Program-made: the position numbers and the translations under genes
DNA from: Mustelus asterias
Taxonomy: Eukaryota
Reading direction: 5' to 3'
Length of the DNA stretch: 63,845 nt
Assembly: GCF_964213995.1 (NCBI RefSeq)
Contig: NC_135808.1
Location: 22,568,001 to 22,631,845 of the forward strand
The notes under the pieces: generated by a model
Told to the model about the DNA's origin: nothing
Databases searched by the model: none
The model's input: the letters and a program-made list of their open reading frames with translations, nothing else
Part shown: one piece after another, positions 14,378-53,694 of the stretch
How the letters are laid out: each line of letters begins with the position of its first letter
Position numbering within the stretch: the stretch's first letter is position 1

Positions 14378-14515
14378 TTTAAATCCTATTTTGTGTCCAA
14401 TCAGATTGAGGCTCAGTGTAAACAGGGAAAGACAGAAGGAGTGAGTTGAGAAAATGGCCTTTTGTTTGAAAAAGAGTTTCCTCCAAATGTTTCTCCCAAC
14501 ATGAGGGAAGCAGCA

Positions 14516-14907: not shown

Positions 14908-14943
<36 letters not shown>

Positions 14944-17900
14944 GTGTTGGTGTTTTTAGGGTGTCTATCCTGAATTCTCTCTCTCTCTATTCCAGGCTCT
15001 CACTCTCTCCGGTATTTCTTCACGGGAATGACTCCGATCCCGGGTTTCCCGGAGTTTGTGGCTGTCGGTTCTGTGGACGGTGTCCAGTTTGTTTTGTACG
15101 ACAGCGATCGGAGGGAGCTGATCCCCCGGGAGCAGTGGATGGTGGAGAGCGAGGGTCGGGCAGCCTGGGAGCGGAAGAAGGATCTCGCACAGGAGCAGGA
15201 GATGTACTCCAAACTTACTGTTCCACTGCTCATGACCCGCACCAACCAGACAGGAGGTGAGTGCTCACTCTCCCAGCACCCTGGATCCAGGTGGGAATGA
15301 GGAGAAACCCAGAGTGGATCAGGAACCGGGAGCCAGAGGCTGATTGGCTGCGATTGGAGATGTGACAAGAAATGTGATTGGCTGTGAATGTGTGGAGGGA
15401 TTGTTTCCAGGGAGGTCTGGCTCTGATTGGCTGTGTGTGAGGGGGGGGGGGGGGGGCAGAGTACTTGATGTTGATTGGCTGGTAGGATGAGATCGTCCAG
15501 TGAGACTAGTTCTGAGTGGCTGTGCAGGTGGGATCGCCCATTGGGACTGTCTCTGATTGGCTGTTTGTGTTTCTGATCCTTAGGGATCCATGTTTACCAG
15601 CTGATGACTGGCTGTGACCTGAGGGATGATGGGACCACGAGTGGATTCAACCAAAGGGGATGGGACGGAGATGATTTTATCAGCTTCGACAAGGATCACA
15701 TGATGTGGGTGACCCCGGTGCCCTGGGGAGAGATCACCAAAAACAAGTTGGACAGGAGCACAGTCGACATTCAGCGATGGAAACATTACCTGGAGGTGGA
15801 GTGTATCGAGTGGCTGAGGAAATACCTGGAGTACGGACAGAAAGAATTGAGAGTCTGTGAGTGAGGGGGGAGTGAGAGTTGGTGAGTGAGGGGGGGGAGT
15901 GAGAGTCGGTGAGTGAGGGGTGAGTGAAAGTCGGTGAGTGAGGGGGGGAGTGAGAGGCGGTGAGTGAGGGGGGAGTGAGAGTCGGTGAGTGAGGGGGGAG
16001 TGAGAGTCGGTGAGGGAGGGAGGGAGCGAGAGTCGGTGAGTGAGGGGGGAGTGAGAGTCGGTGAGTGAGGGGAGTGAGAGTCGGTGAGTGAGGGGGGAGT
16101 GAGAGTCAGTGAGTGAGGGGGGAGTGAGAGTCGGTGAGTGAGGGGGGAGTGAGAGTCGGTGAGTGAGGGGGGAGTGAGAGTCGGTGAGTGAGGGGGGAGT
16201 GAGAGTCGGTGAGTGAGAGGGGAGTGAGAGTCGGTGAGTGAGGGGGGAGTGAGAGTCGGTGAGTGAGGGGGGAGTGAGAGTCGGTGAGTGAGGGGGGAGT
16301 GAGAGTCGGTGAGTGAGGGGGGAGTGAGAGTCGGGGAGTGAGAGTCGGTGAGTGAGGGGGGAGTGAGAGTCGGTGAGTGAGGGGGGAGTGAGAGTCGGTG
16401 AGTGAGGGGGGGTGAGAGTCGGTGAGTGAGGGGGGAGTGAGAGTCGGTGAGTGAGGGAGGAGTGAGAGTCGGGGAGTGAGAGTCGGTGAGTGAGGGGGGA
16501 GTGAGAGTCGGTGAGTGAGGGGGGAGTGAGAGTCGGTGAGTGAGGGGAGTGAGAGTCGGTGAGTGAGGGGGGAGTGAGAGTCGGTGAGTGAGGGGGGGTG
16601 AGAGTCGGTGAGTGAGGGGGGAGTGAGAGTCGGTGAGTGAGGGGGGAGTGAGAGTCGGTGAGTGAGGGGGGAGTGAGAGTCGGTGAGTGAGGGGGGAGTG
16701 AGAGTCGGTGAGTGAGAGTCGGTGAGTGAGAGTCGGTGAGTGAGGGGGGAGTGAGAGTCGGTGAGTGAGGGGAGTGAGAGTCGGTGAGTGAGGGGGGAGT
16801 GAGAGTCGGTGAGTGGGGGGGGGTGAGAGTCGGTGAGTGAGGGGGGAGTGAGAGTCGGTGAGTGAGGGGGAGTGAGAGTCGGTGAAGGGGGTGATGCCGG
16901 GACTCTTATCTCGAGGTTCCTGTACTGACTCCTCTTTCTTTCTCTCTCAGTTGCCCCCGTCGTGTCCTTTACCCGTCTGGGTGATTCTAACCGGCTGTCC
17001 TGTGCCGTCACCGGGTTTTACCCTCAAGCCATCGAGGTGAATGTGTGGAGAAACGGAGTGATGATTGATGAGACTCTGTCCAGTGGGATCTTACCCAATC
17101 ACGACAGCTCCTACCAGATCCGGAAATGGGTCGAGTTTGATCCAGAGGACCAGGCCGAGTATTCCTGTCGGGTGGAACACAGCGGGATGAAGGAGACACT
17201 GGTGGTGATTTACGGTAAGACTGTTTCTCACTGTTAGAGAGGACCCAGCCTCAGACCAGGATCACAGGAGGGAGGGTCAGTGCTGAGCTGTCAACCCAGG
17301 ATATATAGAGAGGGAAATAAATCTTATTCAATGCGTTATATATCATGGTTCCACAGTGCAACGTGATACAGCGTATCATTGGATATTGGGATCGCACTGG
17401 ACCTGGTGTAACATTGGACACAAGAGTAGGTCTGGGCCTGGTGTATTCTGGGATATTACAGTATGGTGGGGCCCAGTGAACCCTGGGATATTGCAGTAGT
17501 ACAGACCGTGGTATATCCTGAGATACTCTCGTAGGACACATCCCAGTGAACCCTGGGATATTGCAGTGGTACAGACCGTGGTGTATCCTGAGATATTCTC
17601 GTAGGACAAAAACCAGTGTATCCTGGGATGTTGCAGTGTGTCAGGGTCTGGTGTATCCTGGGATATTACAGGAGGTTGGGCACCGTGGAATATCAGAGGA
17701 TGGAGAGAGCCTGGTGTATCCAAGAAACAATGCTTTTCACTGTGTACCAATACATGTGACAATAATAAATCACATCAAATATTACAGTAGGACTGGACCC
17801 AGTGCATCCTGGAAGTTTGCTTCAGTCAGATTAAGATCAGTATTCAGAGAAATAATGGAATTCCTTCTATTGGAGACAATTCATGAAAATCTAGAATCAA

Positions 17901-20457
17901 ATACTATAACAATGAATATTCAGCATGGATTTTGAAATGGAAAATCTTGTTTTACTCCAATTAGTGGATTTTTTGAGGATGTAACAAAGGGAATAGACAA
18001 TGGTAATGTAATAGATATAATATCATATAATTTTTTTAATGTAATAGAAAAGGGGGTTCGTGATGGACTGATTGACAAGGTGAAAGCATGTGGAGTTAGG
18101 GGATGAGTGACAGAATGGATCACTCACTGACTTTGGGACAGAAAACAGAGAGTGTGAGTAAAGGGTGTTTCAGAGTTACAGAAAGTGTTCCACAAGGATC
18201 AGTGCTGGGATCACCGCTGTTCACAAGTTACACTCCATAACTTGGATATTGGAATCAAAAATACCATTTCTTAATTTGCAGATAACATCAAATTGGGAGA
18301 ATTATTTGATTTTGAGGAGAACTGGAATAAATTAATAGGACATGAATAAACTTGAACAAATAGTTGGTAAATAAAGTTCAGCACAGTTAAACGTGAGGTA
18401 TTTTTCAGTTAACGATGAATAGGGAGGGTTGAGGAACAAAGGGATCTTGATGTACAAATACACCAATCAGTAAACATAGAGTTACAGGTTAGACAATAAA
18501 CAAAATACAATCGAAAACCAGGTTTGATTTCTCCAGGGATAGAATTGTAAAGTAGTGACTTTATTGCTAAACCTGTATCAAACCTTGGTTAGACCACATT
18601 TAAAGACCGTGTGCAGTTCCGGTCACCATTTCATAAAAAGGATATAGAGTCAGGGGAGAGAGTGTAGAGAAGATTTACAGAGATGATTCCAGAAATGAGT
18701 GGGTGGACATCTCAGGAAAGGATTGACCGGCTGGGTCTCTGCTCTCGGGAAAACAGAAGGCTGAGGGTTGACCGAATCGAGGATTTAAAATTAGGAAAGT
18801 TTTTTTTATAGGCCAGACACATCGAGAGTGTTCCTCTTGTGGGAAGAGCATATCCAGTGGCCATCAATACAAGAAACCCAATGGGGAATTCATGAGAAAC
18901 CTCTTCACCCAAAGAGTGATGAGAATGTGGAGCTCGCTGCCACAGGGGGTGGCTGAACTGAACAGTATAGTTTAAGGGGAGGATAGACAAGCAAATGAGG
19001 GAAAGGGGAATAGAGTTAAAATGGTTGAATTAGATGAGGAATGATGGGAGAAGGCTCAAGTGGAACATAAATACCAGTATCAACTAGATGGGCCGGAAGG
19101 CCATTTTCTATGTTGTATATCCTGTGTTTCCTGATTCACTCTCACTCTGATTCTCTCTCACATTTCTCTTTCTTTCACTCTGATTCACTCTTTCATTCTG
19201 TCTCTCTGATCTTTCTCTGTCTCTCATTCTCTCTCTTCCTCACTCTTAGTTGCTCATCCTCTCTCTCATTCTCTCCCACTCGCTCACATTCTATTTCTCT
19301 CTGAGTCTCACTGTTCCCTCTCCCTGATTCACTCAGTCTCTCACATTCTGTCTCTCTGATTCTCACTTTTTTCTCTCCCTGACTCACTCAGTCTCTCTGA
19401 TTCTCTCTCTCTAACAGAACCAAAGTCTCGCTCCCAGGTTGCTGTTACTGTCGGGATTGTGGTCGGGGTCCTCGTGCTCATCGCTCTCATCATTGTGGCT
19501 GTCGTCATCTACAACAAGAAAGGTAGGAATTGGAGGGAAAAGAGCGGTGGGTGAACTGTAGTGGATCCAGGCAGTCCGGGAGGCTGGAATTGATTCGTGC
19601 CATGACTAGCTTTTCGAATCATTTCATAACGATGGATGTCAGAGCCACCGGATGACAGCTCACTGGGGGCAGGGATTCTGGGAGAGTATTCCAGGGTGGC
19701 GGTGGCTCAGGCTGTGGATCTCAGATTGGTGTGGGGGCGGGGATGGGGGGCTGGTGGTTGTACAGAGTGGGTGGAAGAGCTGCAGGTTTGGGATAGGGAT
19801 GGTAAGGGGCTCATGATAAAGGATGAGTGTCTGAGAATTGTGGGAAGGGCCTCAAATTGGGTGAGGAGTTCAGGGTATCAGTGAGGGCTCAGCTAAGAGT
19901 GAGGGTCTAGGGACAGGACGGGAGTGATGGTCCAGGGTCAGGGTGGGAGTGAGGGTCTTGTGTCAGGATGGGAGTGAGGGTCTCTGGTTGTGGTGGGAGT
20001 GAGGGTTCAGAATTGTGTTGTTGGGGCTCAGTGCGAGTGAGAGTTCCAGCCTCTGTCTCTGATTTTCTCTCAGTCTCGTCACTCACTGAGCATTCCATGT
20101 TTTACAGGGAGAGGGAAGAGCAACTACAATCCTGCAAATAGTAAGCTGATCATCAAACATTGTCCCTGTGCAACTGTGTACATCATTGTTCATTCTGTTT
20201 CAACGTTAGTTTGTGTGTGTGTGTGTGCGTGCATCGTGCGTTTCTGTGTGGGTGTGTGGGCTTCTGTGTGTCGCCGTTAGTATGGGTGTGTGAGAACCTC
20301 TTTCTCTGTGTCTCTCTGTCTCTCTCATTCTCTCTTTATCATATTCACAGTCTCTGCCTCTGTCTCTCTGATGTTGAACAATGTTTTAACACCTCTTCTT
20401 CCTTTAACAGCTTCTGATGATGGGGATTCCTCATCCAGATCCTCCACAAGTACCTGA
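14516..20457 (+). CDS. MHC class I heavy chain gene 1 (nonclassical-like), 7 exons, 343 aa
   Basis: Exons 14516-14564 (leader MIGLIELVLLCGEVSA), 14996-15256 (a1), 15584-15856 (a2), 16951-17214 (a3), 19418-19522 (TM), 20108-20140, 20411-20457. All introns are GT-AG phase 1, total 1032 nt with no internal stop. An in-frame upstream ATG lies at 14501. Confidence 0.93.
14565..14856 (+). repeat. 63-bp minisatellite (about 4.5 units) starting at the exon 1 donor
   Basis: GTGAGTGATGGGG... recurs at 14565, 14628, 14691 and 14754. Confidence 0.9.
14996..15256 (+). CDS. Gene 1 exon 2, alpha1 domain
   Basis: GSHSLRYFFTGMTPIPGFPEFVAVGSVDG...LMTRTNQTGG, with the NQT glycosylation site. Confidence 0.93.
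15584..15856 (+). CDS. Gene 1 exon 3, alpha2 domain
   Basis: IHVYQLMTGCDL...WDGDDFISFD...YLEVECIEWLRKYLEYG, with the canonical Cys pair. Confidence 0.93.
15857..16890 (+). repeat. 25-bp G-rich minisatellite (GTGAGTGAGGGGGGAGTGAGAGTCG), about 40 units, in gene 1 intron 3
   Basis: Visible period. The unit spans the exon 3 end and the donor. Confidence 0.95.
16951..17214 (+). CDS. Gene 1 exon 4, alpha3 C1-set Ig domain
   Basis: LSCAVTGFYPQAIEVNVW...PNHDSSYQ...YSCRVEHSG. Confidence 0.93.
17380..17830 (+). repeat. Degenerate ~35-bp minisatellite in intron 4
   Basis: Recurrent CCTGGGATATTGCAGT motif. A shorter version is at about 34545-34920. Confidence 0.6.
17850..19110 (+). mobile_element. Old degenerate CR1 LINE relic in intron 4 (paralogous copies at ~34950-36205 and ~61900-62870)
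   Basis: Decayed QHGF, QGSVLG, FADN and LVRPHL motifs. Confidence 0.65.
19418..19522 (+). CDS. Gene 1 exon 5, connecting peptide and transmembrane
   Basis: EPKSRSQVAVTVGIVVGVLVLIALIIVAVVIYNKK. Preceded by a long CT-rich tract. Confidence 0.9.
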
Positions 20458-20888
20458 GGTATGAACTGTGTTGATAAATATTGGGAGCTGATCCTTCTAA
20501 CTGGGATATTCCCGCTGGATTTAGCTGTACAATCTGGTGGGTGGGCTGTGAGCTCAGTGTCTGTCTCTCGCTCTATAGTCACTAAAGAGCAGCTCATCCA
20601 ATCCAACACTGAGCTTTGAGACTGGCCTTCTGGAGACGGCTGTTCCTGTACAGTCTGAGGGTGGAGACATTGTGGGTGTTGAGGTGTCGAGACATCCGGA
20701 AACATCTCACCCTGGACAGCCTCCTCTGAGCTGCTCAATTTCCTGAAGGAATTTGTAACTCCCAGACTTTTCCCTGAAGTTGGTCACTGAGCTGTGCCGC
20801 TCCCACAGGTTTTTATTTTAGTCGTGTTTTGTGATGAGTCTGATCATTAGCTGGATGTTTGGGGCGTGGAGTAGAGTTTAGGAGTTAA

Positions 20889-21820
20889 GCTGGTGATTGG
20901 TGGTCTGATGGGTTTCGCTGGTGTTTTGTATTCTATTGGGTTTTGCTGGTGTTTGGGGCTCTGATGGGTTTAGCTGGTGTTTGGGGTCCTGATGGGTTTA
21001 GCTGGTGTTTGGGGATCTGATGGGTTTTGCTGGTGTTTGGGGGTCTGATGGGTTTTGCTGGTGTTTGGGGCTCCGATGGGTTTTGCTGGTGTTTGGGGCT
21101 CTGATATGTTTTGCTGGTGTTTGGGGGTCTGATGGGTTTAACTGGTGTCAGGGAGTCTGATGGGTTTAGCTGGTGTTTGGGGCTCTGATGGGTGTAGCTG
21201 GTGTTTGGGTTTCTGCTGGGTTATCTGGTGTTTGGAGGTCTGATGGATTGAGCTGGTGTTTGGGGCTCTGATGGGTTAGCTGATGCTTGGGGTCTGATGG
21301 GTTTTGCTGGTGTTTGGGGGTCTGATGGGTTTTGCTGGTGTTTGGGGTCTGATGGGATTTGCTGGTGTTTGGGGCTCTGATGGGTTGAGCTGGTGTTTGG
21401 GGCTCTGATGGGTTCAGCTGGTGTTTGGGGCTCTGATGGGTTTCGCTCGTGTTTGGGGCTCTAATGGGTTTTGCTGGTGTTTGAGGGTCCGATGGGTTTC
21501 GCTGGTGTTTGGGGATCTGATGGGTTTTGTTGGTGTTTGGGGCTCTGATGGGTTTAGCTGGTGTTTGGACGTCTGATGGGTTTTGCTGGTGTTTGGGGCT
21601 CTGATGGGTTTAGCTGGTGATTGGTGCTCTGATGGTTTAGCTGGTGTTTGGGGCTCTGATGGGTTTAACTGGTGTTTAGGGCTCTTGTGGGTTTTGCTGG
21701 TGTTTGGGGCTCCGAAGGGTGTTGCTGGTGTTAGGGGCTTTTGTGGGTTTAGCTGCTGTTTGGGGCTCTGATGGGTTTCGCTGGTGTTTCGGGGGTCTGA
21801 TGGGTTTTGCTGGTGTTTGT
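20889..21820 (+). repeat. 28-bp G/T-rich minisatellite (GCTGGTGTTTGGGGCTCTGATGGGTTTA) downstream of gene 1
   Basis: Period 28 (20945, 20973, 21001, 21029). Resumes at 22736-22815 after a CR1 insertion. Confidence 0.92.
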
Positions 21821-21823
21821 GGT

Positions 21824-22735
21824 CATAGAGTCATAGAGGTTTATAGCATGGAAACAGGCCCTTCGACCCAACTTGTCCATGCCGCCCTTATATGTTTTTA
21901 AAAACCCCTAAACTAATCCCAATTGCTCGCATTTGGCCCATATCCCTCTATACCCATCGTACCCATGTAACTATCTAAATGCTTTTGAAAAGATAAAATT
22001 GTACCTGCCTCTACTACTACCTCTGGCAGCTTGTTCCAGACACTCACTATCCTCTGTGTGAAAAAATTGCGCCTCTGGACAGTTTTGCATCTCTCCCCTC
22101 TCACCTTAAACCTATGCCCTCTAGTTTTAGACTCCCCGACCTTTGGGAAAAGATATTGACTATCTACCTTGTCTATGCCCCTCATTATTTTATAGACCTC
22201 TAGAAGGTCACCCCTTAGCCTCCTACACTCCAGAGAAAAAGTCCCAGTCTATTCAGCCTCTCCTCAAAACTCAATCCATCAAGTCCCGGTACCATCCTAG
22301 TAAATCTTTTCTGCACTCTTTCTAGTTTAATAATATCCTTTCTATATTAGGGTCGACAGAATTGCACACAGCATTCCAAGTGTGGCCTTACCAATTCCGT
22401 GTACAACTTCAACAAGACGTCCCAACTCCTGTATTCAATGTTCTGACCAATGAAACCAAGCATGCCGAATGCCTTCTTCACCACTCTGTCCACCTGTGAC
22501 TCCACTTTCAAGGAGTTATGAACATGCACTCCGAGATCTCTTTGTTCTGTAACTCTCCCCAACGCCCGACCATTAACTGAGTAACTCCTGCCCTGGTTCA
22601 ATCTACCAAAATGCATTACCTCGCATTTGTCGAAATGAAACTCCATCTGCCATTCGCCGGCCCACTGGCCCAATTGATCAAGATCCCGCTGCAATTGGAG
22701 ATAACCTTCCTCACTGTCCACCATGCCACAAATCT
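21824..22735 (-). mobile_element. CR1 LINE 3' fragment inserted in the 28-bp array
   Basis: Minus-strand ORFs WQMEFHFDKCEVMHFG and TRGHRFKVRG. Paralog at 40892-41808. Confidence 0.9.
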
Positions 22736-23520
22736 GGGTCTGATGGGTTTTGCTAGTGTTTGGGGTCTGCTGGGTTTAGCTGGTGTTTGGAGGTCTGATG
22801 GGATTTGCTGGTGGTGTGTGGTTGGAATGTTGAAGGAAATAATATTTATGATTGAGAGCGAGGCCATTCAGCCCATCATATCCCTTCCTGTTCATGAAGA
22901 ACTCTCCTGCTTAATATCACCTCCTGTACTCGATCTGTAGCTCTGTCGATCACAGCTCTTCAACTCGACGTCCAAGAATGGATTCAATGTGGTGAGAGTT
23001 TCTGCGTCTACCATCCTTTCAGACAGTGCTTCAGCTGTCGTCTATCTGGTGTTGTTACAATTCTAGCAAAACCATTCTGCTGTCTGTCTCAACTGATGAA
23101 AGAAAAGCATGTTATGTACCTTCTTTACCATGTAATTAACCTGTCCTGAAAACTTTCCCAATCTGTGGACATGCACTCCTGGATCCCTCTGATCCTCCAC
23201 ATTACTCATTATCCTCCCATTTACTGGGGAATCCCTTTGCCTTGTTCATCCTCCCGAAATCCATCACCTCTCACTGCTCCAGATTGAATTCCATTTTCCA
23301 ATGCTTTTCCCAACTGCTCAGGCCATCTCTATCTTCCTGCAATCTGAAGCTTTCCTCTTCACTGACACCCACACAGATAATATTTGTACCTCTGTAAACT
23401 CTTTATCATTCCCGCTGCATTTGAATCTAAATGATTCACATGAACTACAAAAAGTGAGGGTGTGAGTGCTGGGTCCTGTGGAACCCCCACTGGTAACAAG
23501 AAGTCTTGTTTAGGTCTGAG

Positions 23521-23630
23521 AAGTCTCTCAACATCAGGTTAAAATCCAATTCGGAATCACGAGCTTTCGGAGAACTGCTCCTTCGTCAGATGAGTGATGG
23601 TCAGTCCAACGCCGGCATCTCCACATCATG
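23521..23630. mobile_element. Tiny Penelope terminal-repeat remnant with an inverted hammerhead core
   Basis: Minus strand CTGACGAAGGAGCAGTTCTCCGAAAGC (23562-23590) abuts the plus-strand terminal CAGTCCAACGCCGGCATCTCCACAT. Paralog at 42592-42701. Confidence 0.6.
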
Positions 23631-26600
23631 GGCATCATTCTAGTCGCAATCAACCCCTTACCCCTTTGCTTCCTGCCACTGAGCTAATTTGGGGTCTGAT
23701 TTGTCCATGTCTCTTGGATCTCGATGAGTTTTACATTTCTGACCAGCCTGCCATGTGGGACCTTGTCCAAAGCATTATTAAAATGCATGTTGACCTTGTC
23801 CACCTCACTGCCCTCATCAACCCTCCTTCTCACCTCTTCCAAATTTTCAGTCAGAAAGCTTGAGATGAGCTCCCCTTAAATCCACGCTAACTTCCCTCGA
23901 CTAATCTGTGCCTTTCTCGATGAAGGTTTGTACCGTTCCTCATAATTGGTTCCAACAATGTTCCCACTGCCGAAGTTACACTAACTGGTGTATAATTACT
24001 CAGATTGTCCCTTCTCTTTTCAATCCATGGTGTAATGTTGGCAGTCATTTAATCTTCTTCCACACTCCTGTAGCCCGGGAGGAATGATTCTGATGATCAG
24101 AGCCTCTGCAATTCCCTCCTTTGCTTCTTTTAACCCGGTGATTTACCATCTTTCAAAGTTATAAAATCCCTGAATACATCATCTCTTACAGTGTTTATCT
24201 GATGCAGTAATTCACACACTTCTTCTTTAACTGCAATGTCAGCATTGCTCCCTGTTTCCCAAAGACAGTGGCAATGTATTTATTCACAACCTCAACACAT
24301 TCTCCCTCCTCTCTCACAGACTATCTTATTGGTGTCCACCAGGCCTTACTCTTTCCTTATCCTTTTCTCTTCAGGTACTTAAAGAACATCCTTGGAGGTT
24401 CCTTGATTTTTCTTGCCAGTATTTTGTCGTGCCCCCTCTCCTTTCCCAGTATTCCTCTCTCAGTATCTCTTCCAGGTTTCTGCATTGTTAGGCGTGAGGG
24501 GTCTGATGGATTTTGCTGCTGGTTTTTGTGGGGGTCTGATGGGTTTTGTTGGGTGTGTTCCAGCTCTGCTGGCTTTGCCTCAGTTTTTCTTTCTCATCCC
24601 CAGTGCCCTCCAGTGCATTCCAGGGTTTGTAATCTAGGAACACCAGTTCCCAAGAACAGCAGCGGGAGAGGATGAGAGAATGAGGGAAGATGTGATTTCA
24701 TCAAGGTGACAGCGACCGACTGATTCAAGCTCCACATATGTGATTCTGTTTAAATGGAACTGTGATGATGGTTTGGAAGTAATTGCTATATCTGGAGCTG
24801 CACTTTCTGAGCTATTCTGATCTGAGCTGCTTATTCTGCACAGACACTAGAGGGCGATCTTATGAAAAATATTCTCTGTCCAGAAAGAGCATGAAAATGG
24901 GAGAGTTTCTGATCCGTGTTTCAGGCGTATCCAAATCTACAATCTTATGCACTTGTTTCTCACCCTTGTAGGGGGAGGGGGCAGGTCTTAAATAACCAGA
25001 ATGCTGCCTGAAAGCAGCAGAGGACACCATTGCGCATCTGCAGGTCCCTCTGCTCTGAGCTGCAGAGAGACCTGTCACTCAGCCTCTGCTGCTTTCACCA
25101 GACCTCCATGGCCGAAACACGGACTCCCCAGCTGCCACGGCGGTCCGTGGCCTAATGCAACCCCTGATGGTCGGACCAATTGACCCCGTGACACCCTACA
25201 TGTCCGGACAGACCAAACCGCGCCTCTGGGACAGATTGAACCCCGTGACCCCCCTCCCCCTAATTCGGACCGACTTTCCCTGTCCATCCCACCACCGATC
25301 GCAATGCAGTAGCCCCCGCTACTTCTCTCACTGATGGCAAATACTCAGTGGCAGTAGCCCCCCCACACCCCAAATTGCAAATGCATAGCGTGCAGCGCCC
25401 CGCCCCCATCACCACAGGTTGGTCCCACCCCAGTAGAGCCCCCCTCCAAATAATCAGGCTCCACACCCTTCCCACTCCCACTGCCTGGTGCGCACTTCGA
25501 AGATACCAGGCTGGCACTGCCCGCAAGGCACTCCCCCCAACCTCTCGGGGTGGCTTCAATGGCTTCTGGATCCACGAGCGAGGCATCGGGTCTGGTCCCT
25601 GTTGTGATTCTCGCTGGAGTGAACCTCTCCCGTGAGGCCACAGAGACGAGAGCCCAGATGATTGCGCCGCGGGCTCGCTCATTTTGTTCAAAACAGGTTT
25701 TAAATGTAGTCAAGTATTTTATTCAGCCTCGCGCCGCAATGTGTGAGAAATCGGGTGCGAATCTCATCTGTATTGAACTCATGAATTCCAATATCTTCTG
25801 CCCTTTCCTGATTTTTTCTCTTCATGTCTGTTATTCATTGGTGAGTGTGTTTGTGTCACATCTCCCATTCCCAAGCACTCTGTCTGGGGAAATAACAAAC
25901 ATTATTGAAATATCAGAGCTTTTGTATCAAACTGTCATCTGCAACTCCAAATGTCAGATCGCGGTAAATTTCGAATTCTTGTCACTGTTGGAAATATTGT
26001 TACACTTTGCAGTATTGGACACAATTGTTACCTGTATGTGTGTGTGTGTGTTATTAAAACAACAGAAAAGGTTTATTCTGCTCGGAGCTGAATGGGTTAA
26101 TTCTAAATTAAAACACATTTGGTGAAGGAATTCACTGTCACCGCGATTTCAGAAAGTGACTGGATTACAATGTTCTCAGAGTAATGGCGGTTTCAGCAGA
26201 ACAAAGATATTTCTTCATCTCTTGTGGATTCACCAATTCAAACTGGATACTTCCGAATAAAAACCTTGGAGCAAAATGGATTAGAAGATAAAGTCCCAAT
26301 TGTTCCCCAGGGTTGTTTTTAAATGGAGATTTTAAAAACAAGAATAATCCATGAACAATCACCTTCAATTCATTCCTGAATTTGAAATTACACCATTAAA
26401 GCTTAAAAAAAATGACCCCACTCTGACAGATGTGAATTTGTATCTGGATTAGAGATCCCACATGTTTCACCCATTTCAACAGAGTTTCATTGTAACGGCA
26501 ACAAGCTCCCAGTTTAAAAACTTTTAAACTGTTCTCCCCCTTTAGACCTCACCATTTTGAGGAAAACACAGAGTTGGAGCTGGTCTGAAGGAACAGCAAC

Positions 26601-26697
26601 ACAGAGCATTCACACAGCCTTTTCTCATTCACTAACAGGAAGTTTACACACACACATCTGTCCACACAATTCTTTCTCACATCACTTCAAGTTTCAC

Positions 26698-27580
26698 ATT
26701 TGGAGGAAAATGTAACTGGATTGATTAGTCAGTTTGCGGACGACACAAAGGTTGGTGGATTTGCGGACAGCGATGAGGACCATCAGAGGATGCAGCAAGA
26801 TGTAGATCAGTTGGAGACTTGGGTGGAGAGATGGCAGGTGAAGTTTAATCCAGACAAATGTGAAGCAATGCATTTTGGAAGGTCTAATACAGATAGGAAA
26901 TATACAGTAAATGGCAGAACCCTTCAGAGTATTGATAGCAAAGGGATCTGGGTGTACAGGTACACAGGTCACTGAAAGTGGCAATGCAGGTGGAGAAGGT
27001 AGTCAAGGCGGCATATGGCATGCTTACCTTAATTGGCTCTTGGAATATCGTGTTCCATTCTGGTCGCCACACTACCAGAAGGATGTGGAGACTTTGGAGA
27101 GAGTACAGAAAATATTTACCAGGATGTTGCCTGGTATGGAGGGCATTAGCTATGGGGAGAGGTTGGAGAAATTTGGTTTGTTCTCACTGGAGCGACGGAG
27201 GTTGAGGGGAGGCCTGATAGAAGTCGACAAGATTATGAGGGGCACGGACAGAGTGGATAGTCAGAAGTTTTTTCCCAGGGTGGAAGAGTCAATTACTAGG
27301 GGGCACAGGTTTAAGGTGCGAGGGGCAAGGTTTAAAGGAGATGTACAAGGCAGATTTTTTTTAAAAACAAAGAGTAGTGGGTGCCTGGAATTCGTGGCCG
27401 GGGGGAGGGAGTGGAAGCGGGTATGGCAGTGACTTTTAAGGGGCATCTTGACAAGTACATGAATAGGATGGGAATAGAGGGATATGTTTCCCGGAAGAGT
27501 AGGGGGTTTTAGTTAAGTTAGGCAGCATGGTTGGTGCAGGCTTGGAGGGCCGAAGGGCCTGTTCCTGTGCTGTAATTTTT
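26698..27580 (+). mobile_element. CR1 LINE 3' fragment unique to unit 1
   Basis: FADDTKVGG...KCEAMHFG...TRGHRFKVRG. Absent at the paralogous site near 48268. Confidence 0.9.
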
Positions 27581-28248
27581 TTGGCATATATTCCTATTCT
27601 CATGAAAGAGCATCTTATCCAAACTGAAAGTTGGCCAAGGCCGGAATTGAACCCGCGTCCCTGGTACTGTGAGGCAGCAGCGCTAACCACTGTGCCAGCG
27701 TGTCACCCACTTGGACACAGGTTGCTTCACATCCTTTAGATCTGTGCACAGAACGGAGACATATTCATAAAGTAAAAGGAACAGTTGTTTGTTTACAAAT
27801 CAGGATATCTCTGAACATAAACAACCCGGTTGTTCACACAGTATTTTAAACTTTACTGTGAGTTTCTTTAATTGCTTTTTTCTAACCTGCTTCTGATATT
27901 CCACCAACCAGACATCAACAGCCCATTTCTGAAAAGCAGCGAGATCCATTTCTTCATCCTGATTCAATAATCTAATCTTTGGCCTCACATCTCCGTGATC
28001 TCTCACTATTTGTTTCTTCCCGTCGATTTTCTCCCAAACATTCCAATTTCCCTACTCTGATCCAAGCATCCAATCACCAAATACTGTTTCTTTGTGCACC
28101 ATTTGACCTTTCAATTTAACTCTGCTCGATCAACTGTCCACTTTCTCAAATCACTTCCTTCCTGAACAAACACTAACTTCTCAAACAAGGCTCGGCAAGC
28201 TGAGACCTATTTTTATCGTGATTGCTTCAATGGTACAAGGTTTAATAT

Positions 28249-28450
28249 AAGTACAGGACACAGCTCACACACTGAGAGGGACAGTATCAGTACAGGACAC
28301 AGCTCACACACTGAGAGGGACAGTATCAGAACAGGACACAGCTCACACACTGAGAGGGACAGTATCAGTAATGGACACAGCTCACACACTGAGAGGGACA
28401 GTATCAGTAAAGCACAGCGCTCACACACTGAGAGGGATGCTATCAGTGCA
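28249..28450 (+). repeat. 39-bp minisatellite, about 5 units (CAGTACAGGACACAGCTCACACACTGAGAGGGACAGTAT)
   Basis: Visible period, with a 13-aa periodic pseudo-ORF on the minus strand. Confidence 0.9.
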
Positions 28451-28459
28451 GAACTGTGA

Positions 28460-28802
28460 CCGGGATGCAGAATGATCTGGACAGGTTGAGTGAGTGGGCA
28501 AATTGATGGCCGATGCAGTATAATTTGCATAAATGTGAGGTTATTCACTTTGGAAGCAAAAAAAAGGCAGATTACTATCTGAATGGTGTAAATTGGGAGA
28601 AGGGAGTGTGCAGTAGGACTTGGGTGTCCTTGTGCATCAGTCACTGAAGGTAGGCACGCAGGTGCAGCAGGCGGTAAAGAAGGCAAATGGCATGTTCGCC
28701 TTCACTGCGAGAGGTTTTGAGTGCAGGGGCAAGGATGTGTTGTTGCAATTAAACAGGGCCTTGGTGAGGCCACACCTAGGGTATTGTGTGCAGTTTTGGT
28801 CT
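28460..28802 (+). mobile_element. CR1 fragment, 5' part, interrupted by the Penelope element
   Basis: QVQQAVKKANGM...LNRALVRPHLGYCVQFWS. Continues at 30056. Confidence 0.8.
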
Positions 28803-28820
28803 TTGTTTACTTGCAACAAT

Positions 28821-30053
28821 GATGTGGAGATGCCGACGTTGGACAGGGGTAAACACAGTCAGAATTTTAACAACACCAGGTGAAGGTCCAACAGGTTTAT
28901 TTGATGGCAAATGCCATTAGCTTTTAGGTGTCTGTTGCGATCCTCCTCCAGACGCTGAAAGATGCCCTCATAAGAACAGGATATGGCGCTCGACTCATTG
29001 ATCAACATTTCCGACGCGCCACAGCGAAAAACCGCACCGACCTCCTCAGAAGACAAACACGCGACACGGTGGACAGAATACCCTTCGTCGTCCAGTACTT
29101 TCCCGGAGCGGAGAAGCTACGGCATCTCCTCCGGAGCATTCAACATGTCATTGATGAAGATGAACATCTCGCCAAGGCGATCCCCACACCCCCACTTCTT
29201 GCCTTCAAACAACCGCACAACCTCAAACAGATCATTGTCCGCAGCAAACTACCCAGCCTTCAGGAGAACAGTGACCATGACACCACACAACCCTGCCACA
29301 GCAACCTCTGCAAGACGTGCCGGATCATCGACACGGATGCCATCATCTCACGTGAGAACACCATCCACCAGGTACACGGTACATACTCTTGCAACTTGGC
29401 CAACGTTGTCTACCTGATACGCTGCAGGAAAGGATGTCCTGAGGCATGGTACATTGGAGAAACCATGCAGGCGCTACGACAACGGATGAATGAACACCGC
29501 TTGACAATCACCAGGCAAGACTGTTGTCTTCCTGTTGGGGAGCACTTCAGCGGTCACGGGCATTCAGCCTCTGATGTTCGGGTAAGCATTCTCCAAGGCG
29601 GCCTTCACGACACACGACAGCGCAGAGTCGCTGAGCAGAAACTGAGAGCCAAGTTCCGCACACATGAGGACGGCCTAAACCGGGATGTTGGGTTTATGTC
29701 ACACTATCAGTAACCCCCACAGCTTGCCTCCTGGACTTGCAGAATCTCACTGGTTGTCCTGTCTGGAGACAATACACATCTCTTTAACCTGTGCTTAATG
29801 CTCCCTCCACTCACATTGTCTGTATCTTTAAGACCTGGTTGGCTGTAGAGATTCGCATTCTAATCAGTATTCTGTAACTTGATTTTGTGTCTCTGTATGC
29901 CCTGTTTGAGAGCAGATTTCCACTCCATCTGACGAAGGAGCAGCGCTCCGAAAGCTAATGGCATTTGCTACCAAATAAACATGTTGGACTTTAACCTGGT
30001 GTCGTTAAAACTCTTATTGTGTTTACCCCAGTCCAACGCCGGCATCTCCACAT
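28821..30053 (+). mobile_element. 5'-truncated Penelope-like retroelement with a GIY-YIG endonuclease ORF remnant (28928-29713) and an inverted terminal repeat
   Basis: VVYLIRC..CPEAWYIGET..LRQRMNEH GIY-YIG motif preceded by a Cys/His linker. 28821-28924 is the reverse complement of 29951-30053. Confidence 0.88.
29929..29953 (+). ncRNA. Minimal hammerhead ribozyme core in the Penelope terminal repeat
   Basis: CTGACGAAGGAGCAGCGCTCCGAAA. Confidence 0.6.
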
Positions 30054-30055
30054 TA

Positions 30056-30757
30056 TTGTTGCAAGTAAACAGGGCCTTGGTGAGGCCACACCTCGAATAT
30101 TGTGTGCAGTTTTGGTCTCCTTTTCTGAGGAAGGATGTTCTTGCTCTCGAGGGAGTGCAGCAAAAGTTTACCAGGCTGATTCCGGGGATGGCGGGACTGA
30201 TGTATGAGAAGAGATTGACTAGGTTAGGATTGTTTTCGCTGGAGTTCAGACGAATGAGGGGGGATCTCATAGAGACGTATAAAATTCTAACAGGACTAGA
30301 AAGGGTAAGTGCAGGGAGGATATTCCCAATGGAGTTCGCTGGAGTTCAGACGAATGAGGGGGGATCTCATAGAGACTTATAAAATTCTAACAGGACTAGA
30401 AAGGGTAAGTGCAGGGAGGATATTCCCAATGGTGGGGGAGTCCCAAACCAGGGATCACAGCCTGAGGATTCAGGGTGCATCATTTAGGATGGAGGTGAGG
30501 AGACATTTCTTCACCCAAAGTGTGGTGAGCCTGTGGAATTCATTACCACAGGAAGTAGCTGATGCCAAAACATTGAATGTATTCAAGAGGCAACTGGATA
30601 AAGCACTTGGGGCGAATGGGATCAAAGGTTATGGAGAAAAAGCAGGATTCGGCTATTGAATTGGATGATCAGCATGATTGTAATGAATGGCGGAGCAGAC
30701 TCGAAAGGTCAAATGGCCTCCTCCTGCTCCTATCTTCTATGTTTCTGTGTTTCTATG
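30056..30757 (+). mobile_element. CR1 LINE 3' fragment with an internal 100-bp tandem duplication
   Basis: Paralog of 12288-12890. 30235-30332 is repeated at 30335-30432. Confidence 0.88.
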
Positions 30758-30924
30758 GACCAATTCTTCCTGTTTCAGTCTTGCAGGTCCAAAATGCAGA
30801 GAGGTTACACTCAGATGAGGATTCTCTGGCAGCAGGTTGTGAACCAGACACAACTTGAGGCAAGGCAGAGAGAGAATCAGGTTGCGTTGCCTTCATTTTC
30901 CAACTTTTTGCCCAGAGAGACTCG

Positions 30925-31219
30925 TGGAATGGCTACAGTGCAGAAGAGGCCATTCAGCCCATTGAACCTGCACCAACAACAATCCCATCCAGGCCCTATT
31001 CCTGTCACCCAACATATATACCCTGTTAAACCCCCTGACATTAAGGGGCAATTTAGCATCGCTAATCCACCTAACCAGCACATCTTTGGACTGTGGGAGG
31101 AAACCAGAGAACCCAGAGGAAACCCATGCAGACACAATCAGTCACCCAAAGGTGGAATTGAGTCTGGGTCCCTGGCACGGTGAGGGAGCAGTGCTGACCG
31201 CTGTGCCATCATGGCACCC
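30925..31219 (-). mobile_element. tRNA-derived SINE (paralog of 13055-13350)
   Basis: Near-identical to the unit 1 copy. Confidence 0.7.
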
Positions 31220-32180
31220 CAATTCAATTCAAACCAGCAGTTTCAAAACTTAAAGTTTCTCCCTGCCGTGTGATTTCCAGAACACCACGAGACTTTGCTT
31301 TTCAGTTTTATTACCCAGCAATTAAAGTGAATCCAGTTCAAAACTAGCAAACAACTCTTCCTCAAGTACCATACAGGTCAGGTGAAGGCAGGCTGGCTCT
31401 CAGTCCAAGGAGTATTTATGGCCCTCTTTTGAGAAAAAAACTCCAAGTCAGTATCAACTATCCGGACAGTGCAATATGTTTCCATGTTTTATGAAAGATA
31501 TGCGTTTCCCAACACATTGAATTGTCCCAGTGTCATTCAGAAGTCCCTTATCTCCAATAATATTCCAGCAAATCTCCTCTGCACCCTCTCTAATACGTTG
31601 ATATTCCTCCTAAAACAGTATGACCAGAGGTGGGGTCAATTCTCCAGCTGGGATCTAATCAATATTTTATCAATGTTCAGCGTGACCTCCTTGCTTTTGT
31701 ACTCTGTGCCTCTATTTATAAAGCAATGGGGTCCAGATGCTTCTTTCACAGTCTCATCACACCTTCCTGCCAGCCTCATACTCACTCAGGTCTCTCTGTT
31801 CCTGCAATCCCTTTATAACTGTACCATTCAGTTTACATTACCTCTGTACATTCTTCTGTTCAAACTGCATCACTTCAAATACCTCACTGGATTGTATTTC
31901 ACCTGCCCTGTGTCTGCCCATTTCACCAACCTGTCTAATGGAACATTGATTGTGTCTGGATGGGAGACAAAGTGATGGAAGTGAAGCTTCAGTTTCACAG
32001 AGTCTTTGTTCAGAGCCTGTCTGGAGTAACTGTGTTCAGTTCTGGACACCGCACCTCAGGAAGGGGAGATTGGTCTTGGAGAGGGTTCTGATCACCAGAA
32101 TAATAAAAGGAGGTTAAATGAAAGGGGTTTTTTTCCCACAGAGTTTATCTGATTGGACAGTTCTCATTGAGGCAGTTTCT

Positions 32181-32243
32181 CAACCTGTTTGTGTCTATTC
32201 TGCCGGAGACTGATGACTCACTGAATCTCTTTATTCTGATTGG
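32181..32243 (+). promoter_or_regulatory. MHC S-X-Y module of gene 2
   Basis: Identical to the gene 1 module: CAACCT, CCGGAGACTGATGACTCA, CTGATTGG. Confidence 0.75.
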
Positions 32244-32380
32244 TTTAAATCCTATTTTGTGTCCAATCAGATTGAGGCTCAGTGTCAACAGGGAAAGACA
32301 GAAGGAGTGAGTTGAGAAGATCACCTTTCTTTGAAAAAGAGTTTCCTCCAAATGTTTCCCCCAACATGAGGGAAGCAGCA

Positions 32381-35300
32381 ATGATTGGACTGATAGAGCT
32401 GGTCCTTCTGTGTGGAGAGGTGTCTGCAGGTGAGTGATGGGGTGTGAGAGGGGCAATGCCAGGCTGGGTAATGGGGCATTAACCCTGGGTCAGTGAGTGA
32501 TGGGATGTGAGAGGGGCAATGCCAGGCTGGGTACTGGGGCGTTAACCCTGGGTCAGTGAGTGATGGGGTGTGAGAGAGGCAATGCCAGGCTGGGTGGAGG
32601 TCTTGCTCTCGGTTTGGAATCAGTGTTTGGGGTTCATGCCCTGATCTCTGTGTGTGTGTGTGTGTGTGTGAGGGTGTTGGTGTTTTTAGGGTGTCTATCC
32701 TGAATTCTCTCTCTCTCTATTTCAGGCTCTCACTCTCTCCGGTATTTCTTCACGGGAATGACTCCGATCCCGGGTTTCCCGGAGTTTGTGGTTGTCGGTT
32801 CTGTGGACGGTGTCCAGTTTGTTGTGTACGACAGCGATCGGAGGGAGCTGATCCCCCGGGAGCAGTGGATGGTGGAGAGCGAGGGTCGGGCAGCCTGGGA
32901 GCGGAAGAAGATCTTCGCACAGGAGCGGGCGATGCGTTTCAAACGTGCATTTCCACTGCTCATGTCCGACACCAACCAGACAGGAGGTGAGTGCTCACTC
33001 TCCCAGCACCAGGGGATCCAGGTGGGAATGAGGAGAAACCCAGAGTGGATCAGGAACCGAGAGCCAGAGGCTGATTGGCTGCGATTGGAGATGTGACAGG
33101 AAATGTGATTGGCTGTGAATGTGTGGGAGGATTGTTTCCAGGGAGGCTGCCTCTGATTGGCTGTGTGTGAGTGGAGGAGGTGGGGGGTGGGGGGGCGAGG
33201 GGCGGGAGCAGTTGACGGTGATTGGCTGTTAGGATGAGATTGCCCAGTGAGACTGGTTCTGATTGGCTGTTTGTGTTTCTGATCCACAGGGATCCATGTC
33301 TGCCAGATAGTGACTGGCTGTGACCTGAGCGATGATGGGACCATGAGTGGATTCAGCCAGTACGGGTGGGATGGACATGATGTTCTCAGCTTCGACAAGG
33401 ATCACATGGTGTGGGTGACCCCGGTCACATGGGGGAAGAGCATCAAAAACTGGTGCAACCGGCAGACTGGCAACATTCAGCAATGGAAACATTACCTGGA
33501 GGTGGAGTGTATCGAGTGGCTGAGAAAATACCTGGAGTATGGACAGAGAGAATTGAGAGTCTGTGAGTGAGGGGGGAGTGAGAGTCGGTGAGTGAGGGGG
33601 GAGTGAGAGTCGGTGAGTGAGGGGGGGAGTGAGAGTCGGTGAGTGAGGGGGGAGTGAGAGTCGGTGAGTGAGGGGGGAGTGAGTGAGAGGGGAGTGAGAG
33701 TCGGTGAGTGAGGGGGGAGTGAGAGTCGGTGAGTGAGGGGGGGAGCGAGTGTGGGGAGAGCGAGTGTGGGGGGGGTGAGTGTGAGCGAGGGTGGGGGGAG
33801 CGAGTGTGGGTGAGGGTGGGGGGAGCGAGTGTGGGCGAGTGTGGGGGGAGCGGGTGTGGGCGAGGGTGGCGGGCGGGTGTGGGCAAGGGTGGGGGGAGCG
33901 GGTGGGGGCGAGGGTGGGGGGGCGAGGGTGGGGGGAGCGAGAGTCGGTGAGTGAGGGGGGATTGAGAGTCGGTGAGTGAGGGGGGAGTGAGAGTCGGTGA
34001 GTGAGGGGGGAGTGAGAGTCGGTGAGTGAGGGGGGAGTGAGAGTTGGTGAAGGGGGTGATGCCGGGACTCTTATCTCGAGGTTCCTGTACTGACTCCTCT
34101 TTCTTTCTCTCTCAGTTGGCCCCGTCGTGTCCTTTACCCGTCTGGGTGATTCTAACCGGCTGTCCTGTGCCGTCACCGGGTTTTACCCTCAACCCATCGA
34201 GGTGAATCTGTGGAGAAACAGAGTGGTGATTGATGAGACTCTGTCCAGTGGGATCTTACCCAATCACGACAGCACCTACCAGATCCGGAAATGGGTAGAG
34301 TTTGATCCAGAGGACCAGGCCGAATATTCCTGTCGGGTGGAACACAGCGGGATGAAGGAGACACTGGTGGTGATTTACGGTAAGACTGTTTCTCACTGTT
34401 AGAGAGGACCCAGCCTCAGACCAGGATCACAGGAGTGAGGGTCAGTGCTGAGCTGTCAACCCAGGATATCGAGAGAGGGAAATAAATATTATTCAATGCG
34501 TTATATATCATGGTTCCACAGTGCAACATGATACAGCGGATCATTGGATATTGGGATCGCACTGGGCCTGGTGTAACATTGGACACGAGTGTCGGTCTGG
34601 GCCTGGGGTATTCTGGGATATTGCAGTATAGTGGGGCCCAGTGAATCCTGGGATGTTGCAGTAGTTCAGAACATGGTATATCCTGAGATACTCTCGTAGG
34701 ACACATCCCAGTGTATCCTGGGATATTGCAGCCTGTCAGGGCCTGGTGAATCCTGGGATATTACAGGAGGTTGGGCACCGTGGAATATCAGAGGATGGAG
34801 AGAGCCTGGTGTTTCCAAGAAACAATGCTTTTCACTGTGTACCAATACATGTGACAATAATAAATCATATCAAATATTACAGTAGGACAGGACCCAGTGC
34901 ATCCTGGAAGTTTACTTCAGTCAGATTAAGATCAGTATTCAGAGAAATAATGGAATTCCTTCTATTGGAGACAATTCATGAAAATCTAGAATCAAATACA
35001 ATAACAATGAATATTCAGCATGGATTTTGAAATGGAAAATCTTGTTTTATTCCACTTAGTGAATTTTTTGAGGATGTAACAGAGGGAATAGACAATGGAA
35101 ATGTAATAGATATAATATCATATAATTTTTTTAATGTAATAGAAAAGGGGGTTCGTGATGGACTGATTGACAAGGTGAAAGCATGTGGAGTTAGGGGATG
35201 AGTGACAGAATGGATCACTCACTGACTTTGGGAGAGAAAGCAGAGAGTGTGAGTAAAGGGTGTTTCAGAGTTACAGAAAGTGTTCCACAAGGATCAGTGC

Positions 35301-53662: not shown

Positions 53663-53694
<32 letters not shown>

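What the first reader, a model, noticed from the sequence alone, without database searches (positions are those of the whole stretch)
15180..33500. Half-fixed, half-hypervariable groove: paralog divergence sits at the F-pocket end and is almost all non-synonymous
Between genes 1 and 2, the leader, TM and cytoplasmic exons are identical. The alpha1 exon has 13 differing codons, all amino-acid-changing, and 11 fall in one 20-residue helix stretch (DLAQEQEMYSKLTVPLLMTR vs IFAQERAMRFKRAFPLLMSD). Alpha2 has about 23 aa differences, clustered at 95-98, 114-124 and 141-155. The A-pocket end (EGRAAWERKK; WKHYLEVECIEWLRKYLEYG) is invariant. The helix also flips from mixed/acidic to strongly basic. Inference: diversifying selection or patchwork gene conversion among paralogs, as if the ligand has a constant part and a variable part, or a receptor or pathogen contacts one end only.
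Basis: partly seen in the sequence, partly recalled or inferred. Interest (0 to 1): 0.75.

Follow-up and report, generated by a model that had tools for sequence, protein, structure and literature searches.

The report
Shark UBA groove: one pocket fixed
These are two copies of a known many-copy shark immune gene family (non-classical MHC class I, UBA) whose binding groove keeps one end nearly constant, with an unusual lysine, while the rest of the groove differs between copies, likely under selection, so each copy would hold a different ligand that is still unknown.

Summary
Genes 1 and 2 are intact members of the shark non-classical class I lineage UBA, in a cluster of at least 55 copies. 'Almost all non-synonymous' fails for alpha2 (10 of 33 codons silent, dS 0.25 > dN 0.15). 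Across 27 distinct grooves, omega exceeds 1 at alpha1 sites (omega 2-3, weakened but kept under stricter models) and not in alpha2. The groove is not half-fixed: only pocket A is constrained (omega 0.38); pockets B to F all diversify (1.4-1.7). The identical leader, TM and tail most likely reflect gene conversion: alpha3 differs by 3.5% against 17-19% for alpha1/alpha2. Groove selection with alpha3 homogenisation is a known MHC pattern. The non-classical twist: C-terminal anchors 84/143/146/147, invariant in 30 Triakis class I sequences, vary here, while Tyr59 is lost and Lys63 is fixed (57 of 61 UBA-clade proteins, 1 of 75 outside). The ligand is unknown. The scan already noted this family and its constant stalk on other stretches of this genome.

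The parts
14501..20457 (+). Gene 1, intact UBA-lineage class I heavy chain, 348 aa. Exons: leader 14501-14564, alpha1 14996-15256, alpha2 15584-15856, alpha3 16951-17214, TM 19418-19522, cytoplasmic 20108-20140 and 20411-20457
   Evidence: open frame, GT-AG borders
32366..37493 (+). Gene 2, intact, 348 aa. Exons: leader 32366-32429, alpha1 32726-32986, alpha2 33290-33562, alpha3 34116-34379, TM 36457-36561, cytoplasmic 37138-37170 and 37447-37493
   Evidence: matches database protein P0003 exon by exon; contigs of relatives join its exons at these borders
15181..15240 (+). Gene 1 hypervariable alpha1 helix block, mature 63-82 (HLA-equivalent 65-84); holds sites 65, 73, 76, 77, 80 with posterior above 0.95 for omega > 1
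32911..32970 (+). Gene 2 counterpart of the helix block; position 84 is Asp, not Arg; its nearest paralogs differ by 14 of 60 nt
15163..15177 (+). Gene 1 rebuilt A-pocket wall: Ala at HLA-equivalent 59 (15163-15165), Lys at 63 (15175-15177)
32893..32907 (+). Gene 2 Ala59 and Lys63 codons
15721..15777 (+). Gene 1 variable alpha2 helix block (HLA-equivalent 138-155); keeps Thr143 and Lys146, Trp147 replaced by Leu
33427..33483 (+). Gene 2 counterpart; Ile143, Trp146, Cys147: with Asp84, all four C-terminal anchors replaced
13001..15180 (+). Stretch near-identical to gene 2 (upstream 2.2%, intron 1 2.7%, alpha1 codons 2-62: 2 of 183 nt) that stops at the helix block; inferred conversion tract
16881..20857 (+). 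Homogenised chassis: end of intron 3, alpha3, TM, tail and 3' flank
52840..63769 (+). Gene 3, third paralog, with a 1-nt deletion in alpha3 near 55540; pseudogene or truncated product; left out of the selection tests

Best explanation
Genes 1 and 2 are two of at least 55 copies of the shark non-classical class I family UBA, in which alpha3, leader, TM and tail are nearly the same in the copies compared, likely through gene conversion, while the groove exons stay different and alpha1 groove residues are likely under diversifying selection, so that each copy would present a different set of ligands. Shown: copy number, family membership, 5-fold lower divergence in alpha3, and omega of 0.38 in pocket A against 1.4-1.7 in pockets B-F. 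Also shown: fixed Lys63 with loss of Tyr59, and variable C-terminal anchors. Inferred: conversion tracts are removed by selection when they enter the helix codons, leaving an island where silent and intronic sites also diverge. Inferred: ligands dock at the rebuilt A end (Tyr7, Lys63, Tyr159, Glu163, Trp167, Tyr171) through a shared feature and are not held by the classical C-terminal hydrogen bonds, so they may run out of the F end. I think peptide-like ligands with a shared N-terminal feature are the most likely.
For: Membership: a clade with SH-aLRT 99 holds all 23 cluster proteins and P0025 (quick tree); P0025 is AAC60347, labelled Gcirratum_UBA in the PMC10751288 supplement. Thioester complement genes lie at C8 20.26-21.05 Mb and an RXR-type hit at 26.06 Mb, as described for the UBA cluster. 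Homogenisation: mean p-distance alpha1 0.173, alpha2 0.186, alpha3 0.035 (maxima 0.35, 0.41, 0.07); rank correlation alpha1-alpha2 0.84, alpha1-alpha3 0.21, alpha2-alpha3 0.05; last 70 nt of intron 3 differ by 4.8%. Genes 1 and 2 are nearest neighbours in alpha1 codons 2-62 but not in codons 63-82 or alpha2; gene 1 is a significant mosaic (P 9.4e-6, Bonferroni limit 1.5e-5). Selection: alpha1 LRT 29.7; 10.6 and 18.3 with a separate tree per half-exon; 20.7 with multi-nucleotide changes, 11.4 with site-rate variation, 8.4 (P 0.015, omega about 2) with both; 0 of 19 neutral two-block recombination simulations reach 29.7. A-priori classes in alpha1: B 1.98, C/D/E 2.74, F 2.74, upward-facing 1.02, A 0.63, rest 0.38. 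Anchors: positions 84, 143, 146, 147 are invariant in 30 of 30 Triakis sequences but take 4, 2, 6 and 4 states in 23 cluster proteins; position 63 is Lys in 23 of 23 but E/N/Q in Triakis. Lys63 occurs in 57 of 61 proteins of the UBA clade defined without columns 59 and 63, Tyr59 in 0 of 61; Lys63 in 1 of 75 outside.
Against: Pairwise Nei-Gojobori omega for 37 groove codons is 1.14, not above 1 (bootstrap P 0.32), and 0.96 without the 6 most divergent copies. Alpha2 shows no class with omega above 1 in site models. The nominal test is too liberal here: 7 of 19 neutral simulations passed the 5% threshold, up to LRT 22.9, and the P of 0.015 is not corrected for recombination. PHI found no recombination within any exon (P 0.91, 0.66, 0.37). 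Pocket A is not invariant: Tyr7 19 of 23, Tyr159 18 of 23, Tyr171 20 of 23. 19 of 55 loci are broken or partial, so relaxed constraint contributes. The 61 clade rows include isoforms and close paralogs and are not independent. Nothing here shows a ligand, surface expression or the geometry of Lys63.
Confidence: 0.6

Rival explanations
1. The variation is driven by a receptor or pathogen protein that docks over the F end (KIR-like footprint), not by the bound ligand.
For: Upward-facing positions vary far more here than in Triakis (entropy 1.14 vs 0.20). Exposed sites 57, 65 and 76 have posterior of 0.94 or more. [quoted passage not shown]
Against: Upward-facing class omega is 1.02 (CI 0.74-1.42) in alpha1 and 0.63 in alpha2, whereas groove-facing classes reach 2-2.7. 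Floor sites 9 and 24 are selected too. No receptor was tested.
Confidence: 0.17
2. No positive selection: the groove exons are old lineages under relaxed constraint, and conversion elsewhere plus recombination produce an apparent omega above 1.
For: Pairwise groove omega 1.14, not significant; high dS in the helix block; alpha2 omega about 1; inflated null distribution; many pseudogenes.
Against: The alpha1 signal persists per half-exon and under multi-hit plus rate variation, and exceeds 19 of 19 nulls. Selected sites fall mostly on a-priori groove or helix positions. Non-groove omega is 0.33 and Lys63, Trp167, Glu166 are fixed. A sharp island within homogenised DNA itself needs selection against conversion (inference).
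Confidence: 0.18
3. Several copies are assembly duplicates or two haplotypes laid in tandem, so copy number and part of the pattern are artefacts.
For: The three-gene cassette occurs four times; gene 1 and its copy 410 kb away differ at 0 of 3321 nt; an N gap lies at 11568-11767.
Against: Tests used distinct sequences only (27 grooves; 16 groups more than 12 nt apart). Genes 1 and 2 are 18 kb apart on one gap-free stretch and differ by 60 nt in two exons.
Confidence: 0.05

Closest known systems
Elasmobranch MHC-Ib UBA lineage (nurse shark AAC60347; horn shark AAC60348; cluster described in PMC10751288; Bartl et al. 1997 cited in PMC12562908, not read)
   Same: Same clade, multicopy, separate cluster between thioester complement genes and an RXR-type gene, same Ala/Ser/Phe59, Lys63, Glu163 signature.
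   Different: Nothing that sets it apart as a family. Added here: copy count, pocket-wise omega and the anchor contrast with a classical set. Ligand and function remain unknown.
Classical shark UAA (PDB 6LUP; 30 Triakis scyllium class I proteins, taken as UAA alleles from recall of Okamura 1997)
   Same: Same fold (6LUP best hit: 54% identity, Foldseek E 2e-31); variation at 24, 70, 73, 77, 95, 97, 116, 152 (site-entropy rho 0.27).
   Different: UAA keeps all nine end anchors and a nearly constant upper surface; variation is allelic. Here it is between paralogs, C-terminal anchors and the upper surface vary, Tyr59 is lost and 63 is fixed as Lys.
Concerted evolution of mammalian class I (HLA-E/H2-Qa1, PMC1403747 abstract) and teleost U lineage (PMC4364491 passages)
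   Same: Alpha3 homogenised within a species while groove residues keep their own history.
   Different: In HLA-E/Qa1 the groove is conserved for one ligand; here it diversifies among dozens of copies.
Class Ib molecules with a rebuilt A pocket: H2-M3 (N-formyl peptides; listing of PMC2191989), HLA-F (blocked A pocket, PMC7590165 passages), MR1 (Lys43 Schiff base, recalled)
   Same: Altered A-end chemistry that fixes one ligand feature or redirects the N-terminus.
   Different: No orthology. The lysine is at 63, not at the MR1 position. Those are single or low-copy genes. The likeness is an analogy, untested.

Membership tests
MHC class I heavy chain | Leader, alpha1, alpha2, alpha3, TM, cytoplasmic exons; Cys pairs in alpha2 and alpha3; class I fold | tested here: met
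Elasmobranch UBA (class Ib) | Groups with reference nurse shark UBA AAC60347 | tested here: met
   SH-aLRT 99, quick tree; FastTree support 0.975; label from supplement
Elasmobranch UBA (class Ib) | Multicopy cluster apart from the class Ia region and from the UDA/UEA cluster | tested here: met
   55 loci at C8 21.6-24.75 Mb; other class I loci at 27.97, 32.3-32.6, 35.07 and 41.6-43.4 Mb; their lineage names were not tested one by one
Elasmobranch UBA (class Ib) | Flanked by c4 and rxrb | tested here: inconclusive
   Thioester-domain genes 0.6-1.3 Mb to one side, weak RXR AF-1 hit (E 9e-4, over cut-off) 1.3 Mb to the other; identity as C4 and RXRB not confirmed
Elasmobranch UBA (class Ib) | Low allelic polymorphism and restricted or low expression | not testable with these tools
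   One assembly; spliced contigs from four studies of related organisms show the family's exon joints, not tissue pattern
Classical class Ia (UAA) | Y7, Y59, R84, T143, K146, W147, Y159, Y171 conserved (PMC4364491) | tested here: not met
   Y59 0 of 23, R84 16, T143 7, K146 6, W147 7 of 23; gene 1 lacks Y59 and W147, gene 2 lacks five of eight
UEA/UCA/UDA class Ib lineages | Groups with these lineages | tested here: not met
   The cluster falls with the UBA reference and apart from the genome's other class I loci; no labelled UEA or UDA reference was in the tree
MR1-like or H2-M3-like ligand binders | Covalent or N-blocked ligand held in the A pocket | not testable with these tools
   No coordinates or ligand data; MR1 fold hits reflect the common class I fold

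The most novel reading that the evidence does not exclude
UBA is an ancient pattern-reading class I system: the Lys63 fixed across sharks and rays binds a shared chemical head (an N-blocked or acidic peptide end, or a carbonyl by Schiff base as in MR1), and dozens of positively selected paralogs read the variable tail through an unanchored F end, giving a germline-encoded repertoire for a microbial ligand class.
Probability: 0.15. Interest if true: 0.78.

Novelty: new member of a known kind. Interest (0 to 1): 0.33.

Why it matters
Shark class Ib lineages have no known function (PMC10751288). The genes and the general pattern are known kinds, so interest is modest. The useful result is a sharper test: positive selection among non-classical paralogs argues that UBA copies bind different ligands rather than decaying, and Lys63 plus the freed anchors 84/143/146/147 name the residues to mutate. 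If a shared head group were found, it would show an H2-M3- or MR1-like strategy in the oldest group with adaptive immunity.

Tried and rejected
Pairwise dN/dS alone gave no significant excess, so the claim rests on likelihood models that I coded myself (F3x4, branch lengths from IQ-TREE M0 rescaled by one factor, naive empirical Bayes posteriors); M0 reproduced IQ-TREE's likelihood within 0.1. PHI gave no intra-exon signal; triplet tests passed Bonferroni for 5, 1, 5 and 3 of 3360 triplets in alpha1, alpha2, alpha1+2 and alpha1-3, and rate differences along an exon can mimic these. 'Recent duplication followed by fast positive selection' was rejected for genes 1 and 2: silent and intronic divergence is high around alpha2 and each gene has closer relatives elsewhere. 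'F-pocket end only' was rejected (pocket B omega 1.68). The AlphaFold model (mean pLDDT 72) returned no coordinates, so spatial clustering was inferred from HLA-equivalent positions, not measured; no complex was folded. The careful tree did not finish and the alpha3 tree failed; FastTree was used instead, where this species' proteins form a clade in both alpha3 (0.815) and alpha1-2 (0.863), so that tree does not itself show incongruence. No RNA holder listed for this species' stretch. The two most relevant papers (PMC8454915, PMC7002201) are not held, so UBA residues, including Lys63, may already be described there or in Bartl 1997. Searches listed no selection analysis of UBA and no mention of Lys63 in it; this covers open-access text only, mostly by listing.
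Full report
What is there. The window (G000:C8:22568001-22631845) holds three MHC class I genes on the + strand. Genes 1 and 2 are intact, 348 codons each; gene 3 has a 1-nt deletion in alpha3 near 55540. Homologs are all shark class I proteins, the nearest labelled Mustelus asterias by the database. The best solved relative is nurse shark class I, 6LUP, by sequence and by fold. Contigs from four studies of related organisms (RNA status guessed by the tool) join leader-alpha1, alpha1-alpha2, alpha2-alpha3 and alpha3-TM at the predicted borders, so the family is spliced in relatives; this does not show expression of these two genes.

Check of the observation. Leader, TM and cytoplasmic exons are identical. 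Alpha1 has 13 differing codons, all amino-acid-changing, 11 in mature residues 63-82; dN 0.085, dS 0.050. Alpha2 has 33 differing codons, 23 amino-acid-changing and 10 silent; dN 0.148, dS 0.250. Alpha3 has 6 amino-acid and 2 silent changes. Non-coding divergence is 2.2% upstream, 2.7% in intron 1, 14.9% in intron 2, 11.8% in intron 3 (repeat-rich, alignment less sure), 4.2%, 6.3% and 3.7% in introns 4-6. In 60-nt windows the differences run 1, 0, 1, 2, 0, then 11 and 6 across the helix codons, then 3 and 2 at the start of intron 2. The counts are right, but the divergence is an island that includes silent and intronic sites.

Numbering. HLA-equivalent positions were assigned by recalled landmark offsets; the helices align without gaps to 6LUP. 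Pocket lists are from Table 1 and the text of PMC8589423 (passages), used. One search used slightly wider recalled lists. The upward-facing set is recalled.

The family. Own-genome searches and fetched stretches gave 55 loci with an alpha2 exon at C8 21.6-24.75 Mb, a lower bound, plus one orphan alpha3. 36 of 55 are intact in alpha1-alpha3 (34 plus 2 with a one-codon insertion; their leader and TM exons were not all checked, and two have a weak-looking GT donor after alpha1). The other 19 were dropped from all selection tests. The 36 give 27 distinct alpha1-alpha2 DNA sequences and 23 proteins. All 23 fall in one clade with P0025 (SH-aLRT 99, quick tree), which is AAC60347, labelled UBA in the PMC10751288 supplement. 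That paper places the multicopy UBA cluster between c4 and rxrb (section 9). Thioester complement genes and a weak RXR-type hit flank this cluster. PMC12562908 (passages) calls UBA an expanded family derived from UAA.

Why the flanks are identical. Over 351 pairs, alpha1 and alpha2 differ by 17.3% and 18.6%, alpha3 by 3.5% (maximum 7.3%), and alpha3 distances barely track groove distances (rho 0.21 and 0.05, against 0.84 between alpha1 and alpha2). Codon tree lengths are 4.27, 4.77 and 1.06. Purifying selection alone does not explain this, since alpha3 dS is 0.06 against 0.29 and 0.50. Genes 1 and 2 are nearest neighbours in alpha1 codons 2-62 (2 of 183 nt) but not beyond, and gene 1 is a significant mosaic with gene 2 as one parent type (P 9.4e-6). 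The window's gene 1 differs from its copy at 23.41 Mb by 10 nt in 3.3 kb, four of them in the groove exons and all four amino-acid-changing; two match gene 2, which fits a recent transfer. PHI within exons was not significant. Alpha3 homogenisation is known in mammals (PMC1403747 abstract) and teleosts (PMC4364491 passages).

Selection. Pairwise estimates are not decisive: 37 groove codons give omega 1.14 (P 0.32), non-groove codons 0.31, and the helix block has dS 0.66 above dN 0.38. Likelihood site models, in my own code, find a class with omega about 3 in alpha1 (24 distinct exons): M2a vs M1a LRT 29.7, posterior above 0.9 at positions 24, 57, 65, 67, 73, 76, 77, 80; M8 vs M8a 31.6. Alpha2 (26 exons) gives 0.14 and 0.78; alpha3 gives 3.1. 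With one tree per half-exon, alpha1 gives 10.6 and 18.3, alpha2 0.76 and 0. Allowing multi-nucleotide changes and site-rate variation together lowers alpha1 to 8.4 (P 0.015, omega about 2). Neutral simulations with two recombining blocks gave up to 22.9; 7 of 19 passed the nominal threshold and 0 of 19 reached 29.7. Selection on alpha1 is therefore likely but less strong than nominal P values suggest.

Which end is fixed. With a-priori classes over both exons, omega is 0.38 for pocket A (CI 0.28-0.63), 1.68 for B, 1.42 for C/D/E, 1.68 for F, 0.87 for upward-facing sites and 0.33 elsewhere; A vs F LRT 27.8 (intervals ignore recombination). As a control I used 30 of the 35 Triakis scyllium class I proteins in four clusters (their status as classical alleles is recalled, and all nine anchors are invariant in them). 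There, pocket A entropy is 0.37, F 0.66 and the upper surface 0.20; here 0.64, 1.73 and 1.14. A conserved A pocket is normal for class I (PMC8236899 passages). The departures are that Arg84, Thr143, Lys146 and Trp147 vary, that Tyr59 is absent in 23 of 23, and that position 63, variable in Triakis, is Lys in 23 of 23, beside Trp167 and Glu166 (23 of 23) and Glu/Asp163 (22 of 23). In a UBA clade defined without columns 59 and 63 (support 0.975), Lys63 occurs in 57 of 61 proteins from sharks and rays and Tyr59 in none; outside it Lys63 occurs in 1 of 75 (rows include isoforms).

How it most likely works. Shown: a large UBA cluster with a homogenised chassis and divergent grooves, constraint on pocket A, and release of the C-terminal anchors. 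Inferred: conversion spreads one chassis, perhaps keeping beta-2-microglobulin and co-receptor contacts uniform, while selection keeps it out of the helix codons. Inferred: position 63 normally helps hold the peptide's amino terminus with Tyr7 and Tyr59, so Lys63 without Tyr59 would disfavour a free amino group and suit an acidic or blocked head, or bridge to Glu163 and close the pocket as in HLA-F. Since Tyr84 and Lys146 close the F pocket, their replacement would let ligands extend. I put this account at 0.6, a receptor-driven one at 0.17, relaxed constraint at 0.18 and assembly artefact at 0.05.

Novelty. The family is named, gene 2's product is already in public databases, and groove selection with alpha3 homogenisation is a known pattern. 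Earlier notes of this scan reached the same family and the constant-stalk reading on other stretches (nothing near); I read them after forming my view. I found no selection analysis of UBA or mention of its Lys63 in the searches, but the two key papers were not held and Bartl 1997 was not read. Papers seen: PMC10751288 (passages, section 9, supplement hits), PMC12562908, PMC6523485, PMC2483932, PMC4364491, PMC8236899, PMC8589423, PMC7590165 (passages), PMC1403747 (abstract and outline), PMC2191989 (listing only). Verdict: observation partly confirmed, interpretation partly supported, new member of a known kind, interest 0.33.

Noticed in passing
window 1-11567 and 11568-11767: A 33-bp satellite of about 350 copies (95% matches) ends at a 200-N assembly gap just upstream of gene 1.
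   Followed up: no
window 15848-16885, 33554-34050, 54063-55311: Intron 3 is a 25-bp minisatellite built from the end of the alpha2 exon and its splice donor; it lies at the border between divergent groove exons and homogenised alpha3.
   Followed up: no
window 14565-14856, 32430-32595, 52904-53066: Intron 1 starts with a 63-bp repeat that repeats the leader exon's splice donor.
   Followed up: no
G000:C8 22.58, 22.99, 23.41 and 24.61 Mb: The three-gene cassette recurs four times; the gene 3 frameshift is in all four; gene 1 and its 22.99 Mb copy are identical over 3321 nt, so some copies may be very recent or assembly duplicates.
   Followed up: partly
window gene 2, alpha2 33290-33562: Two extra cysteines at F-pocket positions 95 and 147; each occurs in 5 of 23 cluster proteins.
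   Followed up: no
L083 and L084 (G000:C8 41.59 and 42.40 Mb): Two UAA-like genes share one alpha3; one has a frameshifted alpha1 in this assembly, the other a very divergent alpha1 without Tyr59.
   Followed up: no
L081 (G000:C8 35.07 Mb): A class I gene with the end anchors kept, resembling the sequence labelled UAA-2 in the PMC10751288 supplement; GC donor after alpha2.
   Followed up: no
P0071 (Heptranchias perlo): Carries both Tyr59 and Lys63 with Thr143/Lys146/Trp147 and sits next to the UBA clade with weak support; a possible intermediate state.
   Followed up: no
L041 and L044 (G000:C8 23.75 and 24.43 Mb): Groove exons only about 70% identical to the window genes, with a one-codon insertion in alpha2, on an alpha3 that is 97-98% identical.
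   Followed up: partly
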